Notes: generated by a model not told the origin, from the letters alone. A stretch of DNA of 64,000 bases from Acidobacteriota bacterium (GCA_965205505.1 CBDBHB010000009.1:2592001-2656000), one strand, 5' to 3'; positions 8,336 through 18,264 are shown, counted from the stretch's first letter. Made by a program: numbers and translations.

Positions 8336-8408
8336 GCTGGCGTAGCTCAGTTGGGAGAGCAGCTGATTTGTAATCAGCAGGTCGGAGGTTCGAGTCCTCT
8401 CGCCAGCT
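8336..8408 (+). tRNA. tRNA-Thr(UGU), integration target
   Basis: Acceptor GCTGGCG/CGCCAGC, anticodon arm CTGAT-TTGTAAT-CAG, T loop GGTTCGAGTCC. Confidence 0.97.
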
Positions 8409-8409
8409 C
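8364..8409 (+). repeat. att direct repeat (left, inside intact tRNA-Thr)
   Basis: TGATTTGTAATCAGCAGGTCGGAGGTTCGAGTCCTCTCGCCAGCTC. Confidence 0.93.
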
Positions 8410-8477
8410 CTCGAAAGTCCCATGAGATCAATGGGTTATGGGATTATTCGGTATCCGCCTATCTCAAGAAAGATCAT

Positions 8478-8501
8478 TCGGGGTCGTCCTGGGGGTCGGT
8501 A
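8478..8501 (+). promoter_or_regulatory. Putative integrase arm-type binding sites (left end)
   Basis: TCGGGGTC-N-GGGGTCGGTA tandem, repeated near the other end at 16084-16106. Confidence 0.6.
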
Positions 8502-9187
8502 TCGGTCCGACTTGTGCTTCTCGACGCTCGAGCCGCTTCCCGCTGCCGCAGCTCCTGTCTCCGCCGCTCGTTCGCGACCCATGGCCGCGGTGGCAGAGAC
8601 GCACCCGCTCCTGGCCAACGACGTAGTCGACCAGGCGCATCGGAGCCTGGATTGTGGCGCCTGGTGAGGCGAATGAGACTTTGGTGGTTGCAGCTGCTCG
8701 AGTGCGCATGCGACACCCAGGCGCCGGAGCGTTGAGACCCCCTGCGGCGCCCGGTTCTAGCCTCTACAAGGCCCGTAGACGCGCATGGGTGCGGTGCAGG
8801 TAAGTAGCTGTCGAAAGCTCGACGCGCATGGGAGGCGCGCAACCGCGTACACGTAGAGTCACCGGCCCCCTCCAACGGCCCTACGTCGTCGCCTGTGCGT
8901 GCTGTGCATGGATCTCGAGGCGCTGACCTTGCCCATTTGCCCCATTTGCGCGCTCGAGGCTCGGCGGCCGTTAGAAACGATCTGTGGGCCTCGTAGGGGG
9001 CCGGCCTCCGAGATCACGCCGCGTAGCAGCCCGCTAGCAGCGTCTCGACACGAGATGACCCCGACCAGCAGCGCCTCGCCCGCGATGCGCCGGTTTGCTA
9101 TGCCGCTCGGTCACTCCCGCACGGTCTGGGGCTCGAATGTGGCATCATTTCCAGACTATCGAAGTAGATCACCTGCCGAGGTCCGGC

Positions 9188-9865
9188 GTGCTCGACGCTG
9201 AAAGTGTTTTCTGGTTCGCCAGTACCATCGCCCAGTGTGTGGTGGCGTTGTTAGCGTTCGCTGCGTTCGTGGCAGTGTGGCGGCTCGATTCCATCACAGA
9301 TTCTCGCAAGGGTACGGCTGAACGCTTGAAAGAAGACATACGGACCGCGCTGAGCCGCTACGCGACCACGGCACAGACGGTCTTGGCCTTCTTTGAGGCA
9401 CAGGGGAGAACCTTCCCGGAAGCCATCATCTGCGGTGATCTCGGGGGGATATGGCAGCAATCACATCGCAATTGGGCCACGCTACACGAAATCGGTCAGG
9501 TGCTTACAGCGCATCGTGACAAGCTATGCTGTTCCAGTCCCAGCGCCGCGATGGACGAGGCGTGGCTCGCCACGAACGGCATCACACGGTCACTTCTCGA
9601 CGATATCGAGAAGTACACGAAGCAGATTGCTCCGACAGTCAAATTGATCGGATCTTTGCGCCGTTGGCTCCGACTAGTTACCTGTTGCAGCTTGAGCACG
9701 ATAGCGCTGAGCCTGATCGTGATCGCTGGAACGAAGCTCCTCGTAGAACACCATCCGGCGCTCTACTTCGCGTTTCTTGTGCTAGCGACGGCAACAGCCG
9801 CAACGCTGCTGTCAGCGAGCCAGCTCGGTCGAGCCATCTTCCAACAGCCAGAAGCGTGGGAGTGA
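9188..9865 (+). CDS. Hypothetical membrane protein (1 N-terminal and 2 C-terminal TM helices), element cargo
   Basis: GAGGT RBS before GTG 9188; hydrophobic segments flanking a soluble helical region. Confidence 0.7.
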   Translation: MLDAESVFWFASTIAQCVVALLAFAAFVAVWRLDSITDSRKGTAERLKEDIRTALSRYATTAQTVLAFFEAQGRTFPEAIICGDLGGIWQQSHRNWATLHEIGQVLTAHRDKLCCSSPSAAMDEAWLATNGITRSLLDDIEKYTKQIAPTVKLIGSLRRWLRLVTCCSLSTIALSLIVIAGTKLLVEHHPALYFAFLVLATATAATLLSASQLGRAIFQQPEAWE

Positions 9866-10008
9866 CGCGCGGCGCCGTGCGCGTAGGAGGCGAGTCCAAA
9901 ACGCGGTGCACTATTCGCCCGAACGGCAGCAAGTAGCGCCGCGCAACGAACCATCCTCCTAGCGTGGTAGGGTCAGCGTCGCAACTCTCTCCACCAGGAG
10001 GCACCCTG

Positions 10009-10533
10009 ATGGGACGCCTAATTCTCTTCGCGGCCACTCTGTTTCTGTTGGCCGCGCCTGCCAGCGCCCAGCAACAAGACGATCGTATCCTGAAAGGGGT
10101 TGTGGACTGGAGCTCCCGAGTCGAGCATCGAGACGACGGACTGAGCATTCTGACTTACGACCTATCAGAATCATCGAGGAATCCACGTGCTAAGGAAGTA
10201 TTTACCTACATCGTCTTTACGTCGATAGACCCTCCTGGTCTAAGCCCAATCGTTACCTTAAATCTAACTCCTCCTGAATTCTCTCGGAACTACTACACTC
10301 TGGCGGTGGTGAACTTCGGAAACCGAACTGCTACCGGAAAAGTCACCCTGAAACTCACCGGTCCTACCAGATGGACTCGAACATTCCGAAACGCGACGGT
10401 GCCGGGTCCTGGCTACGCGGTGTTCTATTTCCAGGGACAACCGCTGAATCGAATAGGGAACTACCTTCTCAAGGGATCGTTCACGCGTGCAGGGTCGATG
10501 AAGTCTCGCTTCTGCGCTGGATGCCTCCGCTAG
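10009..10533 (+). CDS. Hypothetical secreted beta-rich protein, element cargo
   Basis: AGGAGG RBS; signal peptide MGRLILFAATLFLLAAPASA; visibly more AT-rich than flanks. Confidence 0.75.
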   Translation: MGRLILFAATLFLLAAPASAQQQDDRILKGVVDWSSRVEHRDDGLSILTYDLSESSRNPRAKEVFTYIVFTSIDPPGLSPIVTLNLTPPEFSRNYYTLAVVNFGNRTATGKVTLKLTGPTRWTRTFRNATVPGPGYAVFYFQGQPLNRIGNYLLKGSFTRAGSMKSRFCAGCLR

Positions 10534-10915
10534 AGCCCGGCGCTGACAATGACCGGGGCTTGCGGGCGGGAGCCCCTTTCCCCGAGTCAAACTGAGACAC
10601 TACCCAAGTTCGCGCCGTTTCCGTCGCTTGGCGCCCCGGGCTACGGCTGTCATCAACGGCCAGGCGTGTCCCCGCTGCGGATTCCGGGCGCTCTCGCCAG
10701 GTCCTCGAGGGCCTTCCGAGCCTCCGACAGCGTAATCACGGCCTCACGCAGATGAGCGTCGACTAGGCCGTCGGTGAACCACTCACTGTCGCCCGCGTGC
10801 GAAGCAGGCGGCCACAGGTCTTGCTGACGACAACGCCGAAGTGTCGCTGTTTCAATGCGTCGATAAGGCGGCAAGCTGTGCGGGTCGTTCAACGATTCAG
10901 GCATCCCACCTCTGT

Positions 10916-11115
10916 GGACAGCACTTCGGCTTGCTCCAGCACTGCGCAGGGTGTCGTTACCGAGCACATGGACGGCGCTGTCATTGGTCTCCAGCGCATC
11001 GTAGAAGGCCAGCTCATCCTTGGATAGCCTCAGATCTTCACCGCGGGCACTTGCCTCACGCATCTCCGGGGGTCAACTGGATCAGCTCCGTGATCACCTG
11101 TGCGGTCTCAATGGC
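10916..11115 (-). pseudogene. Type I restriction subunit HsdR C-terminal (DUF3387-like) remnant, frameshifted and internally deleted
   Basis: AIETAQVITELIQL / [40 protein letters not shown] / VLEQAEVLS read across frames. Confidence 0.8.
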
Positions 11116-11116
11116 T

Positions 11117-11194
11117 CCGCCCGACAAACAGGAAAGGGCGGCGCAGGCCGTGCTCCAGCAAGCGGTGGTGCTGTCCGTCGGCTGGGCGGCGTGA
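11117..11194 (+). pseudogene. Second HsdR extreme C-terminal remnant in opposite orientation
   Basis: PPDKQERAAQAVLQQAVVLSVGWAA* resembles the YPPDKQEKATQTVLEQAE.LS..W ending of this HsdR family. Confidence 0.75.
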
Positions 11195-11274
11195 CACCAG
11201 ATCTGGGGCCGCAGTTGGCGATACGACGCACTGGCCTGCGTCTACGAGGCACGTGCCCCCCGTGCCCCGGTCCT

Positions 11275-12240
11275 TCAGCGTCTCGCCCCGGTCCGCGGCA
11301 GCGCGGCGGAGATCGCCACGAGCTTCGTCCGCACCGCGGCCGCATGCCCGCTCCACTCCGCTATCACTTCGTCCTTCGCCACGAGCTCACCGCCCCACAC
11401 CTTGAGCGTCTGCTCCGCAAGGTGTCGCTGCGCCCGCTCCTTTAGCGCCCTCTCCCCCACCGCGTCCAGGAACTCGGCAGGCTGCGCAGTCTCGTCGCGC
11501 TCCGATACCCACGCCTCGACGTCTTCGAGCCGGTAGCCATGTGGCCGACCGACCGACCCACGACGCGCCACCGGCATCCCGGCGTCTACCATCTTGGAAA
11601 TCCCTTTCACGCTCCGGCCCAACGCCGCCGACAGCTCCGCACGGCCTAGCAGCTTCTCGACTCCCAGGATCTCGTCGGTGTGCGCGCGACCCAGGAACGA
11701 GCCGCCCTCGAAAGCTTCGCCCGGCTTTTGGAGTTTCCACAACTCTTCCACAGCCGCGAGGTATTCCCCGGGAAGGTCACCACCGGCAAAGAGCGTGAAG
11801 TTCTCGAGGTGCTTGTTCGCGTTCAGGTTCGCCGACGTCGTGTAGAGCACGTCCAGCTTCCCGCCCAGCACGAGGACGAATTTCGCGTGCGAGTTCCACA
11901 CCCGGAGCGCCTGGTCGCCGAATAGGTGGCGCGCGCGGCCACAGTATCGCGGCTGCCTCGATTCGAAGGAACGGTCAACGAGTAGACGGAGAGGCTTGAT
12001 CCGCCCGTCCTGTAGCAGCCGCTCCGCCCGCTCAATGTCGGCGTTCGCCGCCGTCCAGGTCGACACCGTGACGTCGCTCGGGCCGCACCGCTCGAGCAGC
12101 TCTTCTATAGCGTCGATCAGCGACCAAGTCCCATCGGAGAGGCCATGGATCGAGCAACCGTCCGCGAGCCCTTCGAACGCCTCCGAGGGTCCTTTGCTGT
12201 TGCGACCGACCCACGCCGAGCGCTCCTGACCTTCAGGCAC
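11275..12240 (-). CDS. Fusion of PLD/Nuc-like domain and lambda Nu1-like terminase small subunit domain
   Basis: N-part: HAK...TSANLN...LEN; C-part: RAELSAALGRSVKGISKMVDAGMPV..RG..G....Y....V.AW then ERALKERAQ...GELV. Confidence 0.75.
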   Translation of the reverse strand: MPEGQERSAWVGRNSKGPSEAFEGLADGCSIHGLSDGTWSLIDAIEELLERCGPSDVTVSTWTAANADIERAERLLQDGRIKPLRLLVDRSFESRQPRYCGRARHLFGDQALRVWNSHAKFVLVLGGKLDVLYTTSANLNANKHLENFTLFAGGDLPGEYLAAVEELWKLQKPGEAFEGGSFLGRAHTDEILGVEKLLGRAELSAALGRSVKGISKMVDAGMPVARRGSVGRPHGYRLEDVEAWVSERDETAQPAEFLDAVGERALKERAQRHLAEQTLKVWGGELVAKDEVIAEWSGHAAAVRTKLVAISAALPRTGARR

Positions 12241-12254
12241 CCCAACCCCCCCCT

Positions 12255-12330
12255 AGGGCCGCACAAAAAATTAACGAGATTCTGCGCCGTCCACTCCCGT
12301 TAGCGATGACCTCGGCGAAGAACCTATAGG
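12255..12330 (-). promoter_or_regulatory. Putative cos-like packaging site
   Basis: Minus strand AGGTTCT-16 nt-TAACG-GGAGTGGACGGC followed by a T tract, directly upstream of the Nu1-like gene; resembles lambda cosQ-cosN layout. Confidence 0.45.
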
Positions 12331-12381
12331 CACCCCCACCCCCTGCCGGTGGCCGCGCTCGAAGCGATCGCCGCCGCTTGA

Positions 12382-13476
12382 TCACGATGTCACCGGCCGA
12401 CGGTGCTCGTAGCCGTCGTGGCGAGTCTCGGCGTAGGGATCTTCCAGGTCCGCGAACTCCTGCAAGAACCGCTGGCCGGATTCGTCCAGGTCGGCGAGCG
12501 GTACAAGGTCGCCAACGGTCTTGACGTCCTCGCCGCCGAGTTGGTCTTTCCAGTGGTCAGGCTTCGGCCTCGGCTTCGGTGGCTCGATCACCGTTGAACG
12601 TTGCTCATCGGTGGACGTCGTTGCCGGCGTTGCCGGTGGTCGTGCTGGCTCGCTCGCTTGCTCCGCTCTCATCTCTGCATGTGCCTCGGCGAGCGCTTGG
12701 TCGAGGTCGACAGGCTTGCCCCTTACCCCGCCGCTTTTTGCGGCTGTCGGTGGTGGTGAGTCACCCGGATGTGGCGGTTCCTCTCCGATGGGCCCGCCGC
12801 TCGATTTCCACGGATCGGCGCCCAAATCGCCGCCGGCCTCCTTGTCTCTCTCAGGCGCCCCGACGGACGGCGGCGGCGGAGCCTCCAGCGCAGCCGCAGC
12901 CGCGGCCGGTTTCCTCTGTTCAATGAAGGGGGGGGCGCTGTAGGCGCCCCCCTTCTCAGTTACTTGGACAGTTAGGGGGCCTGTGAGTCCGGGTTGAATG
13001 GACTGTGAGTCCGGGTTGGAGCACTTTTTGGACTGTGTGGCCGGGTTGGACTTGGGGCCAGTCCCTCCACCGCGTAGCAGCCAATACGTATTCGAGCGGC
13101 GCCCGTGGCTGCGGCCGGTGAGTAGCTTCCCCTTCCGTTCTAGCTCGCGAATCCCGCGCCGGATTGTCCGCGCCGAAACTCGCGCTTTGGCTGCCATTAA
13201 CTCGACGGACGGAAACGATTTGCCGGTGCCTTGGCTCGCGTGGCGCAGCAGCATAAATTCCACAAACTTCGCGCGCCATGAGGTCTCGTCGTCGTCGCAG
13301 ATTTCCGCCAAGGCTGTCAGCGCCATAAATCCCCTCTTCGGCTCTGGCGTTTCCGGTGGCTTCGATGCCATCGCCATCGGGTCACCGAGCACCACGGCGG
13401 CGGTGCCGCCTGCCCTTTCAAGAACGTCGCGCGGAGCGGCACGCTCCACTGGCGCCAGCGTCGCGGACCTAGACAT
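12382..13476 (-). CDS. HTH-domain replication initiator-like protein
   Basis: SFPSVELMAAKARVSARTIRRGIRELERKG...SNTYWL winged HTH typical of phage initiators; internal DNA direct repeats; start overlaps upstream AlpA stop. Confidence 0.7.
   Translation of the reverse strand: MSRSATLAPVERAAPRDVLERAGGTAAVVLGDPMAMASKPPETPEPKRGFMALTALAEICDDDETSWRAKFVEFMLLRHASQGTGKSFPSVELMAAKARVSARTIRRGIRELERKGKLLTGRSHGRRSNTYWLLRGGGTGPKSNPATQSKKCSNPDSQSIQPGLTGPLTVQVTEKGGAYSAPPFIEQRKPAAAAAALEAPPPPSVGAPERDKEAGGDLGADPWKSSGGPIGEEPPHPGDSPPPTAAKSGGVRGKPVDLDQALAEAHAEMRAEQASEPARPPATPATTSTDEQRSTVIEPPKPRPKPDHWKDQLGGEDVKTVGDLVPLADLDESGQRFLQEFADLEDPYAETRHDGYEHRRPVTS
12981..13050. repeat. Three 16-bp direct repeats (putative iterons/origin)
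   Basis: CTGTGAGTCCGGGTTG at 12981 and 13003, CTGTGTGGCCGGGTTG at 13033. Confidence 0.75.
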
Positions 13477-13732
13477 GACGCTCCGCCCAGGCTTTCGGAT
13501 TCGCCCACCACTCAAGTACTTCGGCGGCGTCGTAGAGTTTGCGCCCGCCAACTTCTCGGGGCTCCGGAAACTTCCCATTGCGGCGCAGGCGCCATCTGGT
13601 CTTACGACTCAGGAGTCCCAGGCGATCGAGATCCCGCTCGCTCCACGCGAGTTGTCCAAGCAACTCGTCGGCGTTGCTCGCCTGCTCAGGCTGCTGGCGC
13701 GGCTTACTTACCACGGATCGCTGACGTTTCAC
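13469..13732 (-). CDS. AlpA-like HTH regulator
   Basis: LSRKTRWRLRRNGKFPEPREVGGRKLYDAAEVLEW. Confidence 0.75.
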   Translation of the reverse strand: MKRQRSVVSKPRQQPEQASNADELLGQLAWSERDLDRLGLLSRKTRWRLRRNGKFPEPREVGGRKLYDAAEVLEWWANPKAWAERHV

Positions 13733-13736
13733 CGCC

Positions 13737-13946
13737 CTACTCCCGGATTCCGCCGGTGACGCTACTGCGTCGGCTATCTATCAGGCGCTCGAGATCCGAT
13801 CGTCTGATGAGGCGGACACCGGACGGCGTCCGAGTCGCGCGAAGCTTTCCGCAGTTGGTCCACAGCCGGACTGTCGCCGGAGTTACGCCCGCGAGCCGAG
13901 CGGCTTCCGCTGGAAGTAGGACGGGGTCGTTCGATGCTTCTTTCAT
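13737..13946 (-). CDS. MerR-like/excisionase HTH protein
   Basis: LLPAEAARLAGVTPATVRLWTNCGKLRATRTPSGVRLIRRSDL. Confidence 0.85.
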   Translation of the reverse strand: MKEASNDPVLLPAEAARLAGVTPATVRLWTNCGKLRATRTPSGVRLIRRSDLERLIDSRRSSVTGGIRE

Positions 13947-14054
13947 TTAGCTAGGCATTCTGCCAGCCTGGCTTGTGTGGTGCAACATATAACATATAGA
14001 ATTACGTTTAAACGATTGGCGCGGAAATCGAGCCCTTTGTCTGTGAGGAGAGAG

Positions 14055-14777
14055 ATGCCGAAGCGAACTCCATCAATCAGCCCCGAGATCAGGGCCGGCC
14101 TTGCCCGGCACAAGGCAGAGAAAGCGAATCCGGCGTATCAGGAGTGGCTCTCGAAGCTGAAGGCAGCATCGAAGCGAATCGGCGACACTGCTGCCGCTCG
14201 GCTCACGTGGCTGTGCGCGTTCGCGCGAGAGAATCTGGAAACGGCCGATCGGGTCGAGCTCGGAGAGTGCTTAGTCGCCTTCGGCCACGGCGGGTTCCCA
14301 GCGTTCCTCGTCGGCGGCGTCGATTTGCCACCCCCACTCGCCGACGAAGATCTCGATCGGCTCCATAAGGAGGTCCGCGGGCTGTTGAGGAAGCTTGTCG
14401 GTGAGCCGGCGGGCCAGGCGGTCGAGGTGCCCTTTGTCGAAGGAGCACGACCGCATCTCGTTCGCGCGACGAATGTCGGTGACCAGCCGGCCATCTTCGG
14501 GCTGACCTGGAGCCAACAAACCGTCTATAGCGCCGTCTTCACGGAACTCCTCGAAATCGTGAACCGCCACGGAGACCGCTTGCGCGCGTGCGACGAATGC
14601 GGGGGTCCGTTCGTAAGGATCCGGCGCCAACAATACTGCTCGCGGGCGTGCTCACAGCGCCGCCGGTCCGCTAGGTGGTACGAGCGGCATGGGGAGGAAG
14701 CCCGCCAACGAAGGAAGGACGACTACCAAAGGAAGGTCGCTCCGGCCAGGGTCAGGCGCCGCAAGAGGGGAGGCTAA
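14055..14777 (+). CDS. CGNR-type zinc-finger protein (putative DNA-binding regulator)
   Basis: GAGGAG RBS before ATG 14055; C-terminal RLRACDECG.PF......YCSRAC..R..R.R and basic tail. Confidence 0.75.
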   Translation: MPKRTPSISPEIRAGLARHKAEKANPAYQEWLSKLKAASKRIGDTAAARLTWLCAFARENLETADRVELGECLVAFGHGGFPAFLVGGVDLPPPLADEDLDRLHKEVRGLLRKLVGEPAGQAVEVPFVEGARPHLVRATNVGDQPAIFGLTWSQQTVYSAVFTELLEIVNRHGDRLRACDECGGPFVRIRRQQYCSRACSQRRRSARWYERHGEEARQRRKDDYQRKVAPARVRRRKRGG

Positions 14778-14786
14778 GTGAGACAG

Positions 14787-16076
14787 CTACGCAAGCGCGG
14801 TCTCCCGCCCGAGCGCCACCACCTTGCCTGCGGTCGCCGGGTCGAGCGCAGCGACGTGCTGACCCCATAATTGGAGCGCCTCGCGCTTTTCGCCGAGCAA
14901 ATCATATGCGGTGTAATGCACCGCTGTCGTGCCCACCGGCGCATGCCCGGCGATCGCCGAGACGACGCTGCCAGGGGTCTTGCAGATGCGCTTGAGGCCG
15001 TCGAGGACCGTGCCTCGCAGATCTCGAATCCACCATTCTTCACCGAGGTCAGCAGCGTCGCGAACGCGCTGGTAGGCGTCCCGGTAGTTCGTGAAGGCCA
15101 AGCCGTCGCGAGTCGGCGACGGGAACATGAAGCCGCTGCGATCCTCGAAGGCGTGCAGCTCGGATAGGACTGCGCGCGGTTGCGACGAAAGCGGTATCAG
15201 GTGATGCTCCGGCGCGTGACGCGAGCGTCGCAGCTTCGTTCGGGCCTTGGGAATACCCCACACCCCGTCGCCATCAGTATCGACTTCATGCCACGCGCCC
15301 TCGAAGACCTCCATGGGGCGAAGGCCGGTGAGTGCCAGTAACCGAAAGCCGAGCCCGGCAAGGCCACCTTCTCTCCGGAAAAGGGGCAGGAGAGTCCGGA
15401 GCTCCTCGTCGGCCAAGATCCGCTTTCGCGGCTTCTCGAGGGCCGGATCCTGGAGGCGAGCCGCCGGATTCCCCGTGAGGCCAGGCTCGTCGCGGTCGAG
15501 GCCCCACGTGTAGATACGGGACAGCAGCGCCGCGGTTCGATTCCGGGCGGTATAGGCACCGCGGTCCTCGTACTCGTCGAGCAGCTCGACGATGTCACGC
15601 TTCCGGATCTCGCCCGCCGGCCGATCACCCCACCGGCCGATCAGGACCTTCTCGACGAGGTTTTCTTCTGCCCGAGCCGACTTTGCGACCTTCCTTACCT
15701 TCGCGTACCGAGCGATGTACTCACGCGCGAGTTGCTTGAACGTGACGGCCTCTCGCGCCTCCCGTCGCTCGGCGGCCGGATCGAGCCCGATGCGGACATC
15801 CTGCAGGACCTTCTTGGCGCGCTTACGCGCCTCGGCCAGCGATATTCGCTCCGGGTCCGTCGCGCCCGGTCCTTTCCTCGGTGAGTCCTCAGTGAGTCCC
15901 AGCGTTACCCGCGGGCGCTTCCCGCCCTTCCAGTAGGAAACGGTGAAGGTCTTCCGCCCGGAAGGGCTCACGCGAAGGATCAATCCGGGCACCTCGATGT
16001 CGTGATAATCTGTGCGCCCTGCCTTCGGCACCGATAAGCTTTTGATCCCTTGCGCGGTCAACTTCGTCTTCGGCAT
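14787..16076 (-). CDS. Tyrosine recombinase/integrase with N-terminal arm-binding domain
   Basis: DIEVPGLILRVSPSGRKTF...SLAEAR arm domain; TGLRPMEV, RTK, RDLR, AGH, HY catalytic region; adjacent to att repeat. Confidence 0.95.
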   Translation of the reverse strand: MPKTKLTAQGIKSLSVPKAGRTDYHDIEVPGLILRVSPSGRKTFTVSYWKGGKRPRVTLGLTEDSPRKGPGATDPERISLAEARKRAKKVLQDVRIGLDPAAERREAREAVTFKQLAREYIARYAKVRKVAKSARAEENLVEKVLIGRWGDRPAGEIRKRDIVELLDEYEDRGAYTARNRTAALLSRIYTWGLDRDEPGLTGNPAARLQDPALEKPRKRILADEELRTLLPLFRREGGLAGLGFRLLALTGLRPMEVFEGAWHEVDTDGDGVWGIPKARTKLRRSRHAPEHHLIPLSSQPRAVLSELHAFEDRSGFMFPSPTRDGLAFTNYRDAYQRVRDAADLGEEWWIRDLRGTVLDGLKRICKTPGSVVSAIAGHAPVGTTAVHYTAYDLLGEKREALQLWGQHVAALDPATAGKVVALGRETALA

Positions 16077-16083
16077 ATGCTTC

Positions 16084-16140
16084 TCGGGGTCAGTTCGGGG
16101 TCGGTAGTCAGCCGCCACTTGCTGACACAATCCGACCCCA
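16084..16140. promoter_or_regulatory. Putative integrase arm-type binding sites (right end)
   Basis: TCGGGGTCAGTTCGGGGTCGGTA at 16084-16106 and inverted CCGACCCC at 16132-16139. Confidence 0.55.
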
Positions 16141-16147
16141 GTATACT
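16119..16147 (+). promoter_or_regulatory. Outward-facing putative sigma70 promoter inside the element end
   Basis: TTGCTG-17 bp-TATACT pointing at att repeat and tRNA-Tyr. Confidence 0.55.
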
Positions 16148-16223
16148 CGCTAATACGCCTTAGCTATAGGGTATTAGCCATTTCATGCAGGGTCACGGAG
16201 TGGCGTTCGGGGGCAATATTTGA

Positions 16224-16269
16224 TGATTTGTAATCAGCAGGTCGGAGGTTCGAATCCGCCCGCCAGCTC
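16224..16269 (+). repeat. att direct repeat (right; displaced tRNA-Thr 3' half)
   Basis: 43/46 identical to 8364-8409. Confidence 0.93.
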
Positions 16270-16283
16270 TGGTTGTACCTAGA

Positions 16284-16366
16284 GGAGAGTTGCCCGAGCG
16301 GCCAAAGGGAGCAGACTGTAAATCTGCCGGCTAATGCCTACGGAGGTTCGAATCCTCCACTCTCCA
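16284..16366 (+). tRNA. tRNA-Tyr(GUA)
   Basis: GGAGAGT/ACTCTCC acceptor, GCAGA-CTGTAAA-TCTGC arm, long variable arm. Confidence 0.97.
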
Positions 16367-16585
16367 CCTTCGTCTCTTGGCGCCTGAGTCACCAGCCGGC
16401 CGCCATCCGGCACCACCGCGACGACCTGTTGGTGGCCGGCGCCAGCGTCGGCACCAGGCCCGGCGTCCGCCTGTTCGACTACACTGGCAGCCGGCTTCTC
16501 GACCTCGAGGTCCTCTCCGCCGGCGTCCAGTAACTTCTGGCCGTACGGGTGCGGTTGCTCGAGCGCTGGCCTCCGCGCCCCCGAC

Positions 16586-16614
16586 TTGGCGCCTGTGTTG
16601 AGGGGTGATAGCAT
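16586..16614 (+). promoter_or_regulatory. Putative promoter for tRNA-Gly/tRNA-Thr/tuf
   Basis: TTGGCG-17 bp-TAGCAT. Confidence 0.45.
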
Positions 16615-16658
16615 ACCCGTTCTCGCACAGGAGAACTCTGTGCACACCACGGTACGAG

Positions 16659-16732
16659 GCGGGAATAGCTCAATCTGGTAGAGCGCCAGCCTTCCAAGCT
16701 GGGGGTTGCGGGTTCGAGTCCCGTTTCCCGCT
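16659..16732 (+). tRNA. tRNA-Gly(UCC)
   Basis: GCGGGAA/TTCCCGC acceptor, CCAGC-CTTCCAA-GCTGG arm. Confidence 0.97.
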
Positions 16733-16813
16733 CTGTGCGCGGCGTCGGGGCGAATCGGCTGGCCATCCACACGGGACACACCGACGCGATAGCCACGTTT
16801 TGCTTTCGGGAGG

Positions 16814-16888
16814 GCCCACGTGGCTCAGTGGTAGAGCGCTTCCTTGGTAAGGAAGAGGTCACCGGTTCAATCCCGGTCGTGGGCTCCA
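16814..16888 (+). tRNA. tRNA-Thr(GGU)
   Basis: GCCCACG/CGTGGGC acceptor, TTCC-TTGGTAA-GGAA arm, encoded CCA. Confidence 0.97.
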
Positions 16889-16953
16889 CCAGTTTGATCG
16901 AAACACATGCGGCAACCGAACAGCGTGCCTGAACTACGTCAGAGGAGAATCTG

Positions 16954-18147
16954 ATGGCGAAGGAGAAATTCGAACGGACGAAGCCGCATGTAAACGTGGG
17001 GACGATTGGGCACGTGGACCACGGCAAGACGACGTTGACGCAGGCGATCACGCTGATTTTGTCGAAGTTGGGACGAGCGGACTACACGCCGTTCGATGAG
17101 ATCGACAAGGCGCCCGAGGAGAGAGAGCGAGGGATCACGATCGCGATAGCGCACGTTGAGTACGAGTCGGAGACAAGGCATTACGCGCACGTGGACTGCC
17201 CAGGGCACGCGGATTACATCAAGAACATGATCACGGGTGCGGCGCAGATGGACGGAGCGATCTTGGTGGTGTCGGCGGCAGATGGGCCGATGCCGCAGAC
17301 GCGGGAGCACATATTGCTGGCAAGGCAGGTGGGAGTGCCGGCGATGGTGGTGTTTCTGAACAAGGTCGACATGGTGGACGACGAGGAGCTGCTGGAGCTG
17401 GTGGAGCTGGAGGTACGGGAGCTGCTGTCGACGTATGAGTTTCCAGGGGACGATCTTCCGGTGGTAAAGGGATCGGCGCTGCAGGCGGCGGAGTCGGGAG
17501 ATCCGGAGTCGGAGGCCGGCAAGCAGATTCTCGAGTTGGTGGAAGCGCTTGACAGCTATATACCGGAGCCGAAGCGAGCGCTGGACCAGGCTTTCATGAT
17601 GGCGATCGAGGACGTGTTCACGATCTCTGGACGAGGCACGGTGGTAACGGGCCGAATCGACCGGGGAGTGGTGAAGACGGGAGAAGAGGTGGAGATCGTC
17701 GGGATTCGCGAGACGCAGAAGAAGGTGGTGACGGGAGTAGAGATGTTCCGGAAGATTCTCGATGAGGGTCAAGCCGGAGACAACGTGGGCGTGTTGTTGA
17801 GGGGAACGGACCGAGATGATGTGGAGCGGGGGCAGGTGCTGGCGAAGCCAGGAACGATCAAGCCGCACACGAGGTTTTCGGCCGAGGTGTATGTGTTGAC
17901 CAAGGATGAGGGAGGTCGACATACGCCGTTCTTCAAGGGATACCGGCCGCAGTTTTATTTCAGGACGACGGATGTGACCGGCTCGGTAGAGTTGCCCGAA
18001 GGCGTGGAGATGGTGATGCCCGGGGACAACGTGACGATCGCCGGAGATTTGATCACACCGATCGCGATGGAGAAGGGTCTGCGGTTTGCTATCCGCGAGG
18101 GCGGACGAACGGTGGGCGCTGGCACGATCACTGATATCCACGAGTAG
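16954..18147 (+). CDS. tuf: Elongation factor Tu (copy 1)
   Basis: [31 protein letters not shown]. Confidence 0.99.
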
Positions 18148-18154
18148 ATACGAG

Positions 18155-18228
18155 AGGGCAGTAGCTCTAATTGGCAGAGCACCGGACTCCAAATCCGGGG
18201 GTTGTGGGTTCGAATCCCTCCTGCCCTG
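18155..18228 (+). tRNA. tRNA-Trp(CCA)
   Basis: AGGGCAG/CTGCCCT acceptor, CCGGA-CTCCAAA-TCCGG arm. Confidence 0.96.
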
Positions 18229-18264
18229 CCTCTTGAACGCGACGAGGCGGTAGAAGTAGCGGGC

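What the first reader, a model, noticed from the sequence alone, without database searches (positions are those of the whole stretch)
8364..16269. Minimal phage-satellite-like element in tRNA-Thr of a probable Acidobacteriota host
Seen: att repeats bound 7.9 kb with the order int(-), CGNR Zn-finger(+), Xis-like HTH(-), AlpA(-), HTH initiator with iterons(-), cos-like site, PLD-Nu1(-), cargo. No capsid, portal, large terminase, tail or conjugation genes. Known: PICIs use int-regulator-alpA-primase/rep-packaging modules. Inference: a satellite type that differs from described PICI, P4, cf-PICI and PLE in using a lambda-O-style initiator, a CGNR regulator and a nuclease-TerS fusion. It would depend on a GpA/Nu1-type helper phage.
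Basis: partly seen in the sequence, partly recalled or inferred. Interest (0 to 1): 0.82.

Follow-up and report, generated by a model that had tools for sequence, protein, structure and literature searches.

The report
Decaying PICI-like island with nuclease-fused terminase
This is a real, partly decayed phage-hitchhiking DNA island of a known general design, and its most notable part is a phage-derived nuclease that sits beside, or is fused to, the DNA-packaging enzyme in many unrelated phages and whose job is untested.

Summary
The 7.9-kb island is real: 46-nt att repeats, an empty site in 4 of 5 relatives searched, the stated gene order, and a lambda-type cos shared with a GpA phage of the same order. 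It fits the published four-core PICI layout (integrase, AlpA/MerR regulator, replicase, TerS), so it is not a new satellite class. It belongs to a genus-restricted family that swaps integrases and replicons around one cos-PLD::TerS cassette.

This copy is decaying. Its TerS has lost the conserved C-terminal helix (TerL-binding in lambda), and it carries private changes at near-invariant residues. Three sister copies keep broken GpA TerL behind TerS, so the cassette came from a phage terminase operon. No helper prophage was found in the host, and excision was not shown. The regulator is only CGNR-like.

The wider result concerns the PLD (NucT-like) nuclease. It is a large phage family (1,658 clusters) lying within 2.5 kb upstream of TerL in 39 of 50 viral clusters. 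It is fused to TerS at least twice independently and once to TerL, which makes it a candidate packaging cofactor. It is testable in cultured phages. The scan had not noted this protein before.

The parts
8336..8410 (+). intact tRNA-Thr(TGT), the integration target, first gene of the Thr-Tyr-Gly-Thr-tuf cluster
   Evidence: ARAGORN; Rfam
8364..8409 (+). left att core, 46 nt
   Evidence: empty site in G002-G005
8757..9173 (.). left-arm segment without a convincing gene, 74% identical to the left arm of the sister island at tRNA-Thr(CGT)
   Evidence: no Rfam match there
9188..9865 (+). cargo: 225-aa protein with hydrophobic stretches, unknown family
   Evidence: no Pfam, PHROG or PADLOC hit; Atlas gives unnamed clusters at 0.93 with low recognition
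10009..10533 (+). cargo: 174-aa protein with a signal-peptide-like start and three host paralogs (42-60%)
10653..11063 (-). remnant of a type I restriction subunit (only 40 aa match), shared at 98-100% with sister E2
   Evidence: PF11867 E 3e-10
11275..12240 (-). PLD(NucT-like) nuclease fused to Nu1-type small terminase, 321 aa. The PLD domain spans about 11686-12219 and the TerS part 11314-11670. It is truncated after residue 309 and has private changes R144H, R262G, R282W, A283G.
12283..12326 (-). lambda-type cos (cosQ-like motif, spacer, cosN-like 11-mer at 12297-12287), ending 43 nt before the PLD::TerS start
12382..13371 (-). HTH_36 (lambda-O-like) replication initiator, 329 aa, open frame; no helicase or loader gene beside it
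12977..13050 (-). three 22-nt iteron-like repeats inside rep (putative ori); sister E3 has three too
13469..13732 (-). AlpA/Xis-like HTH protein
   Evidence: 52% to the AlpA-like gene of element L162
13737..13946 (-). MerR/Xis-like HTH protein
   Evidence: PF12728, PF00376; phrog_66
13947..14054 (.). AT-rich divergent intergenic region, the putative switch (inferred)
   Evidence: sequence; no sigma-70 consensus found
14055..14777 (+). 240-aa putative regulator with a C-terminal four-cysteine, CGNR-like zinc finger
   Evidence: single-sequence model uninformative, pLDDT 43
14787..16076 (-). tyrosine integrase with arm-binding domain, 429 aa, open frame; R, R, H and Y catalytic motifs present, RDLR in place of the usual HxLR (usual form recalled)
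16224..16269 (+). right att core (3' part of tRNA-Thr), followed by tRNA-Tyr at 16284

Best explanation
A PICI-like integrative island of one Acidobacteriota genus, in a degenerating state. Its lineage took the start of a lambdoid phage's terminase operon (cos, PLD::TerS, GpA TerL), kept cos and PLD::TerS, and lost TerL. Proposed cycle of an intact member: (1) Int and Xis excise it from tRNA-Thr. Integration is shown by att repeats and empty sites; excision is inferred. (2) An incoming GpA/Nu1 phage induces the AlpA/Xis-rep operon (inferred by analogy with Gram-negative PICIs). (3) Rep fires at the iterons to make concatemers (inferred). (4) The island's TerS binds next to its own cos and recruits the helper's TerL and proheads (cos and TerS shown by sequence; recruitment inferred). 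The fused PLD is a single-HxK nuclease that probably works as a dimer and would be brought to cos by TerS to help process DNA ends or remove competing DNA (fold and gene linkage shown; activity inferred). In this copy TerS lacks the helix that binds TerL in lambda, so it probably no longer directs packaging. If the island still moves, it does so passively through its cos, using TerS and TerL supplied in trans.
For: Empty site in 4 of 5 relatives. Compact int-regulator-xis-replicase-cos-TerS order in five copies in two genomes (E1, E2, E3, L024, L025) with integrases mostly 23-31% identical and three unrelated replicons. No lambda-type portal in the 5 genus genomes, and 1 of 26 in the order, the full phage G011:C2. 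cos and Nu1-type TerS (41%) shared with that phage. PLD::TerS under purifying selection across copies: dN/dS 0.04-0.08 for PLD at dS 0.5-1.2; 0.10-0.26 for most TerS-part pairs, with one saturated and one near-identical pair uninformative. Anti-phage cargo behind TerS in sisters (PifA, QatA/C, PD-T4-3, PDC-S11). An independent sample holds a 9,732-nt contig with the same int-AlpA arm and left arm but a different middle of about 6.3 kb (run X5, record 19). Decay of this copy: truncation after residue 309 against L024, L025, E3, P0002 and P0007; R144H where 79 of 80 homologs have R, and R262G where 15 of 15 have R. Lambda TerS missing its last 30 residues binds TerL poorly (PMC9026076 passage).
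Against: No excised circle, replication or packaging was seen: no attP joint among the 15 joints listed (62 more not shown) in four runs kept only as contigs. The host has no intact helper: only broken GpA pieces, no portal, no lambda-type capsid, and one HK97-type capsid fragment. TerL remnants behind TerS in E3, L024 and L025, and many different truncations of the fusion among homologs (P0003-P0006, P0008, P0010, P0013), fit decay of a once self-packaging element equally well. The low dN/dS may have been earned in that parent, not in a helper-dependent island. No copy examined has every module intact.
Confidence: 0.55

Rival explanations
1. All copies are deletion remnants of a self-packaging parent (a compact prophage or a capsid-forming satellite with GpA terminase) that broke at various points behind cos. 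They are immobile and are kept as landing pads for cargo.
For: TerL start retained behind TerS in E3, L024 and L025; E3 keeps about 290 more codons of GpA, deleted and frameshifted. G012 has TerS plus the first 194 residues of GpA. Several break points inside the fusion. P0007, a 70% identical full fusion, lies on a 36,356-nt contig of unknown content. The fusion occurs in a phage (L205).
Against: No portal of two families in the host and no lambda-type portal in the genus, where random deletion might leave some. The int-to-cos arm is only about 4-5 kb in E1, E2, E3, L024 and L025, with small-element replicons and a TubC_N gene in L024. The G011 phage has a different early-gene order. Both att sites and the integrase frame are intact here.
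Confidence: 0.27
2. The shortened TerS is a working, Rpp-like redirector. It keeps the DNA-binding and coiled-coil parts, pairs with helper TerS, blocks phage packaging and steers the helper TerL to the island's cos.
For: Rpp proteins have a TerS-like DNA-binding domain, are 30-40 residues shorter at the C-terminus, and sit in a cos-rpp layout (PMC6739421 sections 12, 13, 16; PMC9026076 passages). The same truncation is carried by two elements, E1 and E2.
Against: E1 and E2 are about 85% identical in the gene but 98-100% identical in the DNA behind the break. One recent break copied by recombination explains this, with no evidence of selection on the short form. Their tails differ (12 and 79 unrelated residues). 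E1 has private changes at conserved residues. PDB hits are lambda TerS chains, not RppC.
Confidence: 0.1
3. The island is a satellite, but the PLD domain has nothing to do with packaging. It is a passenger in the gene hot spot upstream of terminase (host-DNA degradation, interference with other phages, or a non-nuclease PLD chemistry), and the fusions are accidents of adjacency.
For: PLD does not replace HNH: HNH lies upstream in 5 of 7 HK97-type loci with enough sequence. Most phages lack the gene: 56 of 50,697 records match, and the G011 phage TerS has no PLD. In Arthrobacter phage Andrew it lies about 3.6 kb from the genome end, among small genes. 11 of 50 viral clusters have no TerL just downstream.
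Against: Linkage to four or more terminase types (39 of 50; 12 of 19 long contigs against 1.4 expected). In-frame fusions to Nu1-type TerS in the E family and in L205, P0062, P0139 and P0173, and to TerL in P0228. H118, K120, S136, N138, N140 and E146 are unchanged in all 80 aligned homologs.
Confidence: 0.35

Closest known systems
PICI, four-core 'Type B' variants without a capsid gene (de Sousa et al. 2023, PMC10085698)
   Same: Integrase, AlpA/MerR-type regulator, replicase, TerS in that order, cargo after terS, no tail, holin or portal; 7.9 kb against a median of 9.5 kb; several copies per genome.
   Different: Acidobacteriota host. TerS is lambda Nu1-type and fused to a PLD nuclease. The replicase here is an O-like initiator with no primase. 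Sisters retain broken TerL. No helper or mobility shown.
Gram-negative cos PICIs with Rpp (EcCICFT073; PMC6092414, PMC6739421, PMC9026076)
   Same: Lambda-type cosQ-cosN followed directly by a gene with a Nu1-like wHTH; dependence on a GpA/Nu1 helper; AlpA upstream of the replicase; C-terminally shorter than TerS in this copy.
   Different: The gene is a true TerS homolog, full length in sisters, not an Rpp with its own dimerisation domain. It has an N-terminal PLD. The truncation looks recent.
Lambdoid temperate phage contig G011:C2 (40.7 kb, same order)
   Same: Same cos motif and spacing to the TerS start, Nu1-type TerS at 41% identity, GpA homologous to the sisters' remnants.
   Different: Complete head, tail and lysis genes; no PLD on TerS; different early-gene order; different host family.
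phrog_16945 'NucT-like nuclease' (gene 1 of Gordonia phage Francois; directly before terS in Microcystis phage Mea-Yong924-1)
   Same: Same PLD family, HxK and SxNxN motifs, position just upstream of terminase.
   Different: Stand-alone gene in those phages, fused to TerS here. No functional study was found in the searches run.
HNH packaging endonucleases (for example Skunavirus HrdP, PMC12967558)
   Same: A small nuclease gene next to terminase genes; functional analogy only.
   Different: Unrelated fold. PLD co-occurs with HNH and does not replace it. PLD is found with cos-type and other terminases.

Membership tests
PICI | integrase and site-specific insertion with att repeats | tested here: met
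PICI | regulation module (alpA, merR or stl homolog) | tested here: met
   MerR PF00376 above cut-off; AlpA below cut-off but phrog_66 1e-6
PICI | primase-replicase module | tested here: inconclusive
   An initiator with iterons is present but no primase. Sisters carry DUF3631 or DnaB-N/AAA_25 genes at this position. The SatelliteFinder profile list is in supplements that were not read.
PICI | small terminase | tested here: met
   phrog_57 2e-14; truncated in this copy
PICI | capsid morphogenesis gene (absent in many accepted four-core PICIs) | tested here: not met
   none in the island; optional according to PMC10085698 section 17
PICI | no tail, holin, portal or head-tail genes | tested here: met
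PICI | helper-induced excision, replication and packaging | not testable with these tools
   no attP joint among those listed in contig-only runs
Rpp-type cos PICI | lambda-type cosQ-cosN next to a TerS-like DNA-binding gene | tested here: met
Rpp-type cos PICI | Rpp homolog with its own C-terminal dimerisation domain | tested here: not met
   PDB sequence hits are TerS chains only; the C-terminal part aligns with Nu1-type TerS
cf-PICI | own TerL, portal, capsid and head-tail genes | tested here: not met
   absent here; only broken TerL in sisters
P4-like satellites | Psu-Delta-Sid operon | tested here: not met
   no such family hit among the island's ORFs; feature named in a PMC10085698 passage
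PICMI | minimal island next to fis, with no packaging or capsid-remodelling genes | tested here: not met
   inserted in a tRNA and carries cos and TerS; definition from the abstract of PMC10803314
PLE | Vibrio cholerae satellite of phage ICP1 with its own core gene set | not tested
   host phylum differs; PLE marker genes were not searched
Defective prophage | residual phage late genes in phage order | tested here: inconclusive
   TerL remnants in 3 sisters, but no portal, capsid or tail remnants beside any copy checked
PLD-superfamily nuclease (Nuc/NucT/Zucchini) | PLD fold with HxK and downstream SxN motifs | tested here: met
   model pLDDT 91; Foldseek hits NgoAVII, SauUSI, Zucchini, Nuc, NucT; motif conservation
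PLD-superfamily nuclease (Nuc/NucT/Zucchini) | nuclease activity | not testable with these tools
   needs an assay; this copy has R144H
zf-CGNR regulators | match to PF11706 | tested here: not met
   only an Atlas lead

The most novel reading that the evidence does not exclude
phrog_16945 PLD nucleases are an unrecognised, widespread accessory subunit of phage DNA-packaging machines, a second class beside HNH, that acts at the terminase. A family of Acidobacteriota satellites has captured it fused to a Nu1-type TerS, so that its own cos is recognised and processed with a built-in nuclease on a borrowed GpA motor. The shortened copies would be snapshots of the TerS-to-Rpp path proposed for E. 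coli PICIs.
Probability: 0.3. Interest if true: 0.8.

Novelty: new variant of a known kind. Interest (0 to 1): 0.56.

Why it matters
The island extends PICI-like, lambda-cos parasites to Acidobacteriota. It also shows how such an element can arise: a small int-xis-replicase chassis captures the front of a phage terminase operon and then sheds TerL. The family preserves successive stages (TerS plus long TerL remnant, TerS plus TerL stub, shortened TerS). The larger lead is the nuclease. A family of at least 1,658 sequence clusters is tied to terminase by position and by repeated fusion, yet is annotated only as 'NucT-like' or 'endonuclease'. It occurs in cultured phages, so its role in packaging is a one-gene knockout away.

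Tried and rejected
1. 'PLD replaces the HNH cofactor': rejected. HNH is present upstream of PLD in 5 of 7 HK97-type loci with at least 700 nt upstream; 8 of 15 loci had too little sequence.
2. 'The fusion is satellite-specific': rejected by phage L205.
3. 'CGNR regulator' as a family label: rejected. Its fold prediction was unusable.
4. Resident helper prophage: none found with PF05876, PF05136, PF03864, PF05065, PF04860, phrog_15 or phrog_21. The genome is 96% complete.
5. attP junction: not among the listed joints. The 8408-to-16284 joints carry foreign spacers and come from other organisms' tRNA operons. All four runs were contigs, and no RNA holder was listed.
6. A loose cos pattern on viral contigs was mostly chance: 66 matches, 51 with enough downstream sequence, 5 with TerL downstream. 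It missed E1 because the spacer range was too short, and two of its genus hits (L118, L120) lie in housekeeping regions. The later pattern was drawn from the elements themselves, so its 3 genome hits are partly by construction; the informative part is no other hit and 0 in two controls.
7. Complex prediction of PLD dimer with the small Terminase_4-like neighbour: no verdict.
8. P0061 and P0067 tails as Terminase_4-like fusions: not supported (for P0061; for both).
9. Context of P0007: not found in viral contigs.
10. Search of longer proteins for PLD fusions gave 1 hit; weak evidence.
11. No PLD match in plasmids. No Rfam family beyond tRNAs above threshold. No PADLOC hit for this island's two cargo genes.
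12. Literature searches with no result. The library lacks most subscription papers, so this is not proof of absence.
Full report
OBSERVATION. The island (E1) lies between 46-nt direct repeats, 8364-8409 and 16224-16269, 93% identical. The left repeat is inside an intact tRNA-Thr(TGT); the right one is followed by tRNA-Tyr. In G002, G003, G004 (same genus) and G005 (same family) the two flanks join across a single copy of the repeat, so the site is empty in 4 of 5 relatives searched; G001 gave no match to the locus. Genes from the right end: tyrosine integrase, a convergent 240-aa zinc-finger protein, then on the minus strand a MerR/Xis-like HTH, an AlpA-like HTH, an HTH_36 initiator with three 22-nt repeats, a 321-aa fusion of phrog_16945 and phrog_57, an HsdR-like remnant, and two plus-strand cargo genes of unknown family. 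The zinc-finger protein is CGNR-like by motif only. Same-genus records are titled Acidobacteriota.

THE COS. The motif at 12326-12283(-) recurs before the same gene in sister elements, directly before TerS-GpA in the 40.7-kb phage contig G011:C2, and before TerS in G012. It lines up with lambda cosQ-spacer-cosN taken from NC_001416. A pattern drawn from these sites hits the host genome three times, at E1, E2 and E3, and never in reversed or complemented controls; the three hits are partly by construction. A looser pattern on viral contigs was mostly chance, with 5 of 51 usable matches upstream of TerL.

A FAMILY. The host holds two more copies of the cassette: E2 (C9 about 1.603-1.610 Mb) and E3 (right end of a 32.5-kb island at tRNA-Thr(CGT)), plus a TerS fragment on C7. 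G004 holds three: L024, L025 and the IS-broken L026. phrog_16945 was found in 2 of 301 Acidobacteriota genomes searched, these two. Integrases of the five mapped copies are mostly 23-31% identical. Replicons differ: HTH_36 in E1 and E3, DUF3631 in E2, DnaB-N/AAA_25 in L024 and L025. E1 is a mosaic: rep and cos resemble E3, while the 3' end and downstream DNA match E2 at 98-100%. A contig from another study has the same int-AlpA arm (29 differences over 2.9 kb) and part of the left arm around a different middle (X5 record 19). Sisters carry PifA, QatA/C, PD-T4-3 and PDC-S11 homologs behind TerS.

FIT TO KNOWN MODELS. De Sousa et al. define PICIs by integrase, alpA/merR/stl regulator, primase-replicase, capsid morphogenesis and TerS, accept four of five, and forbid tail, holin and portal (PMC10085698; passages and section 17 read; supplements with the profile lists not read). 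E1 meets this layout, with the replicase match uncertain. Lambda-type cos PICIs are known in E. coli (PMC6092414, passages), and their rpp gene sits behind cos (PMC6739421, sections 12, 13 and 16 read; PMC9026076, passages). PICMI (PMC10803314, abstract only), cf-PICI and P4 do not fit. So the island is a variant of a known kind.

ORIGIN AND DECAY. Full-length fusions (E3, L024, L025, P0002, P0007) end in a helix that aligns with the end of lambda Nu1. E1 and E2 leave the alignment after residue 309. Lambda TerS lacking its last 30 residues binds TerL poorly. E1 also has R144H (79 of 80 homologs R), R262G (15 of 15 R), R282W and A283G. Behind full-length TerS, L024 and L025 keep about 33 codons of GpA, and E3 keeps the start plus residues 194-486, deleted and frameshifted. 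The cassette therefore came from a phage terminase operon. Across copies the fused gene shows dN/dS 0.04-0.08 in PLD at dS 0.5-1.2, so it was functional for a long time. Whether that was in a helper-dependent island or in a self-packaging parent is the main open point. Against a plain prophage remnant: no lambda-type portal in the five genus genomes, 1 of 26 in the order, and a compact 4-5 kb int-to-cos arm in the five mapped copies. For it: the TerL stubs and the many break points. The host has no intact helper, and no attP joint was listed.

THE NUCLEASE. The N-terminal domain folds with pLDDT 91 and matches PLD-family structures, among them NgoAVII, SauUSI, Zucchini, Nuc and NucT. Six motif residues are unchanged in all 80 aligned homologs. 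The family has 1,658 clusters at E<=1e-10. In viral contigs 368 stretches matched and the best 80 were returned. They form 54 clusters, 4 dropped for less than 2.5 kb downstream. Of 50, 39 have TerL within 2.5 kb downstream on the same strand: 28 by Pfam (12 GpA, 13 PF03354, 3 PF04466), 8 by tblastn and 3 by PHROG. Of the other 11, five lie elsewhere in a terminase region, four have only a Terminase_4-like small gene behind them, and two show nothing. Short viral contigs are biased toward hallmark genes, so I recounted on contigs of at least 20 kb: 12 of 19, against 1.4 expected. Among isolates it is gene 1 with terS as gene 5 in Gordonia phage Francois, and directly before terS in Microcystis phage Mea-Yong924-1. 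In Arthrobacter phage Andrew it lies about 3.6 kb from the genome end. In-frame fusions to Nu1-type TerS occur in the E family, phage L205 (followed by GpA), P0062, P0139 and P0173; one fusion to TerL occurs in P0228; three fusions to an HTH domain occur in P0063, P0146 and P0169 (24 long proteins of the top 150 scanned). A TerS tree puts the E family with P0007, P0071 and P0108 (99/99) apart from L205, so there were at least two fusion events; long branches make other placements unsure. PLD does not replace HNH (5 of 7). HNH genes beside terminase are known to be needed for virion production (PMC12967558, passages). I found no paper on this PLD family in that role (searches; search 60 on Acidobacteriota satellites was also empty), within a library that lacks most subscription journals.

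MECHANISM. Shown: site-specific insertion, module content, cos homology, PLD fold, linkage and fusion to terminase, and degeneration of this copy. Inferred: helper-induced excision and replication, TerS-mediated capture of a GpA motor, and PLD acting at cos. I put 0.55 on a decaying PICI-like cos satellite, 0.27 on immobile remnants of a self-packaging parent, and 0.10 on a working Rpp-like protein. Separately, I put about 0.35 on PLD being a passenger unrelated to packaging.

VERDICT. New variant of a known kind; interest 0.56. The island alone would rate about 0.4. The terminase-linked PLD family raises the score because it is large, apparently unstudied and directly testable. Earlier scan notes showed other integrase islands in this genome, but nothing on this protein.

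Noticed in passing
window 8336-18230: The island splits the tRNA-Thr/Tyr/Gly/Thr-tuf cluster right after its first gene, so the downstream tRNAs and tuf need read-through across 7.9 kb or a promoter near attR; no consensus promoter was found.
   Followed up: partly
L162:12650-18864 (G004:C6): Island with an integrase 55% identical to this one and a similar AlpA-like gene, but a DnaB-type replicase and a different large terminase (phrog_2) with no portal or capsid seen behind it: the same chassis with another packaging cassette.
   Followed up: partly
L038:4933-15266: Metagenome island with int, xis, stand-alone PLD, HK97-type capsid, Terminase_4-like gene and prohead protease: a second satellite-like element carrying this nuclease.
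   Followed up: partly
L029, L159, L160 (G011:C2, 40,680 nt): Apparently whole temperate lambdoid phage of the same order, with fused protease-capsid and a tRNA-Met; the only candidate helper type found.
   Followed up: partly
L196, L193, L022, L182, L190 and others; L027:10686-10955: A 80-110-aa Terminase_4-like gene often follows PLD directly, in addition to the usual TerS, and stays with it away from the head genes. A copy without PLD precedes a Nu1-type TerS in G004.
   Followed up: partly
G000 C9:2956545-2989123 and 3029760: Tandem att copies at tRNA-Thr(CGT) bound two stacked, IS-riddled islands. The second holds a ClpP-like piece and an HK97-type capsid fragment at C9:3007511-3009221.
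   Followed up: partly
G000 C9:1255626-1261625, C2:13994-17762, C7:15300-20700 (L004), C9:2058054-2058736, C5:74179-75653: Further decayed int/primase islands and terminase fragments; the genome is full of small satellite-like relics.
   Followed up: no
P0134, P0135, P0153, P0162, P0265, P0228: Proteins with two PLD stretches in one chain, which would fit a dimeric active site built in a single polypeptide.
   Followed up: no
L001:12102-13760: Behind sister E2 lie a small ORF, an HTH_3 antitoxin-like gene and a 199-aa ORF, resembling a toxin-antitoxin-chaperone arrangement (resemblance recalled; only the HTH was matched).
   Followed up: no
window 10009-10533: The small secreted-type cargo protein has three paralogs elsewhere on C9, two of them in near-identical repeats at 294 kb and 341 kb.
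   Followed up: no
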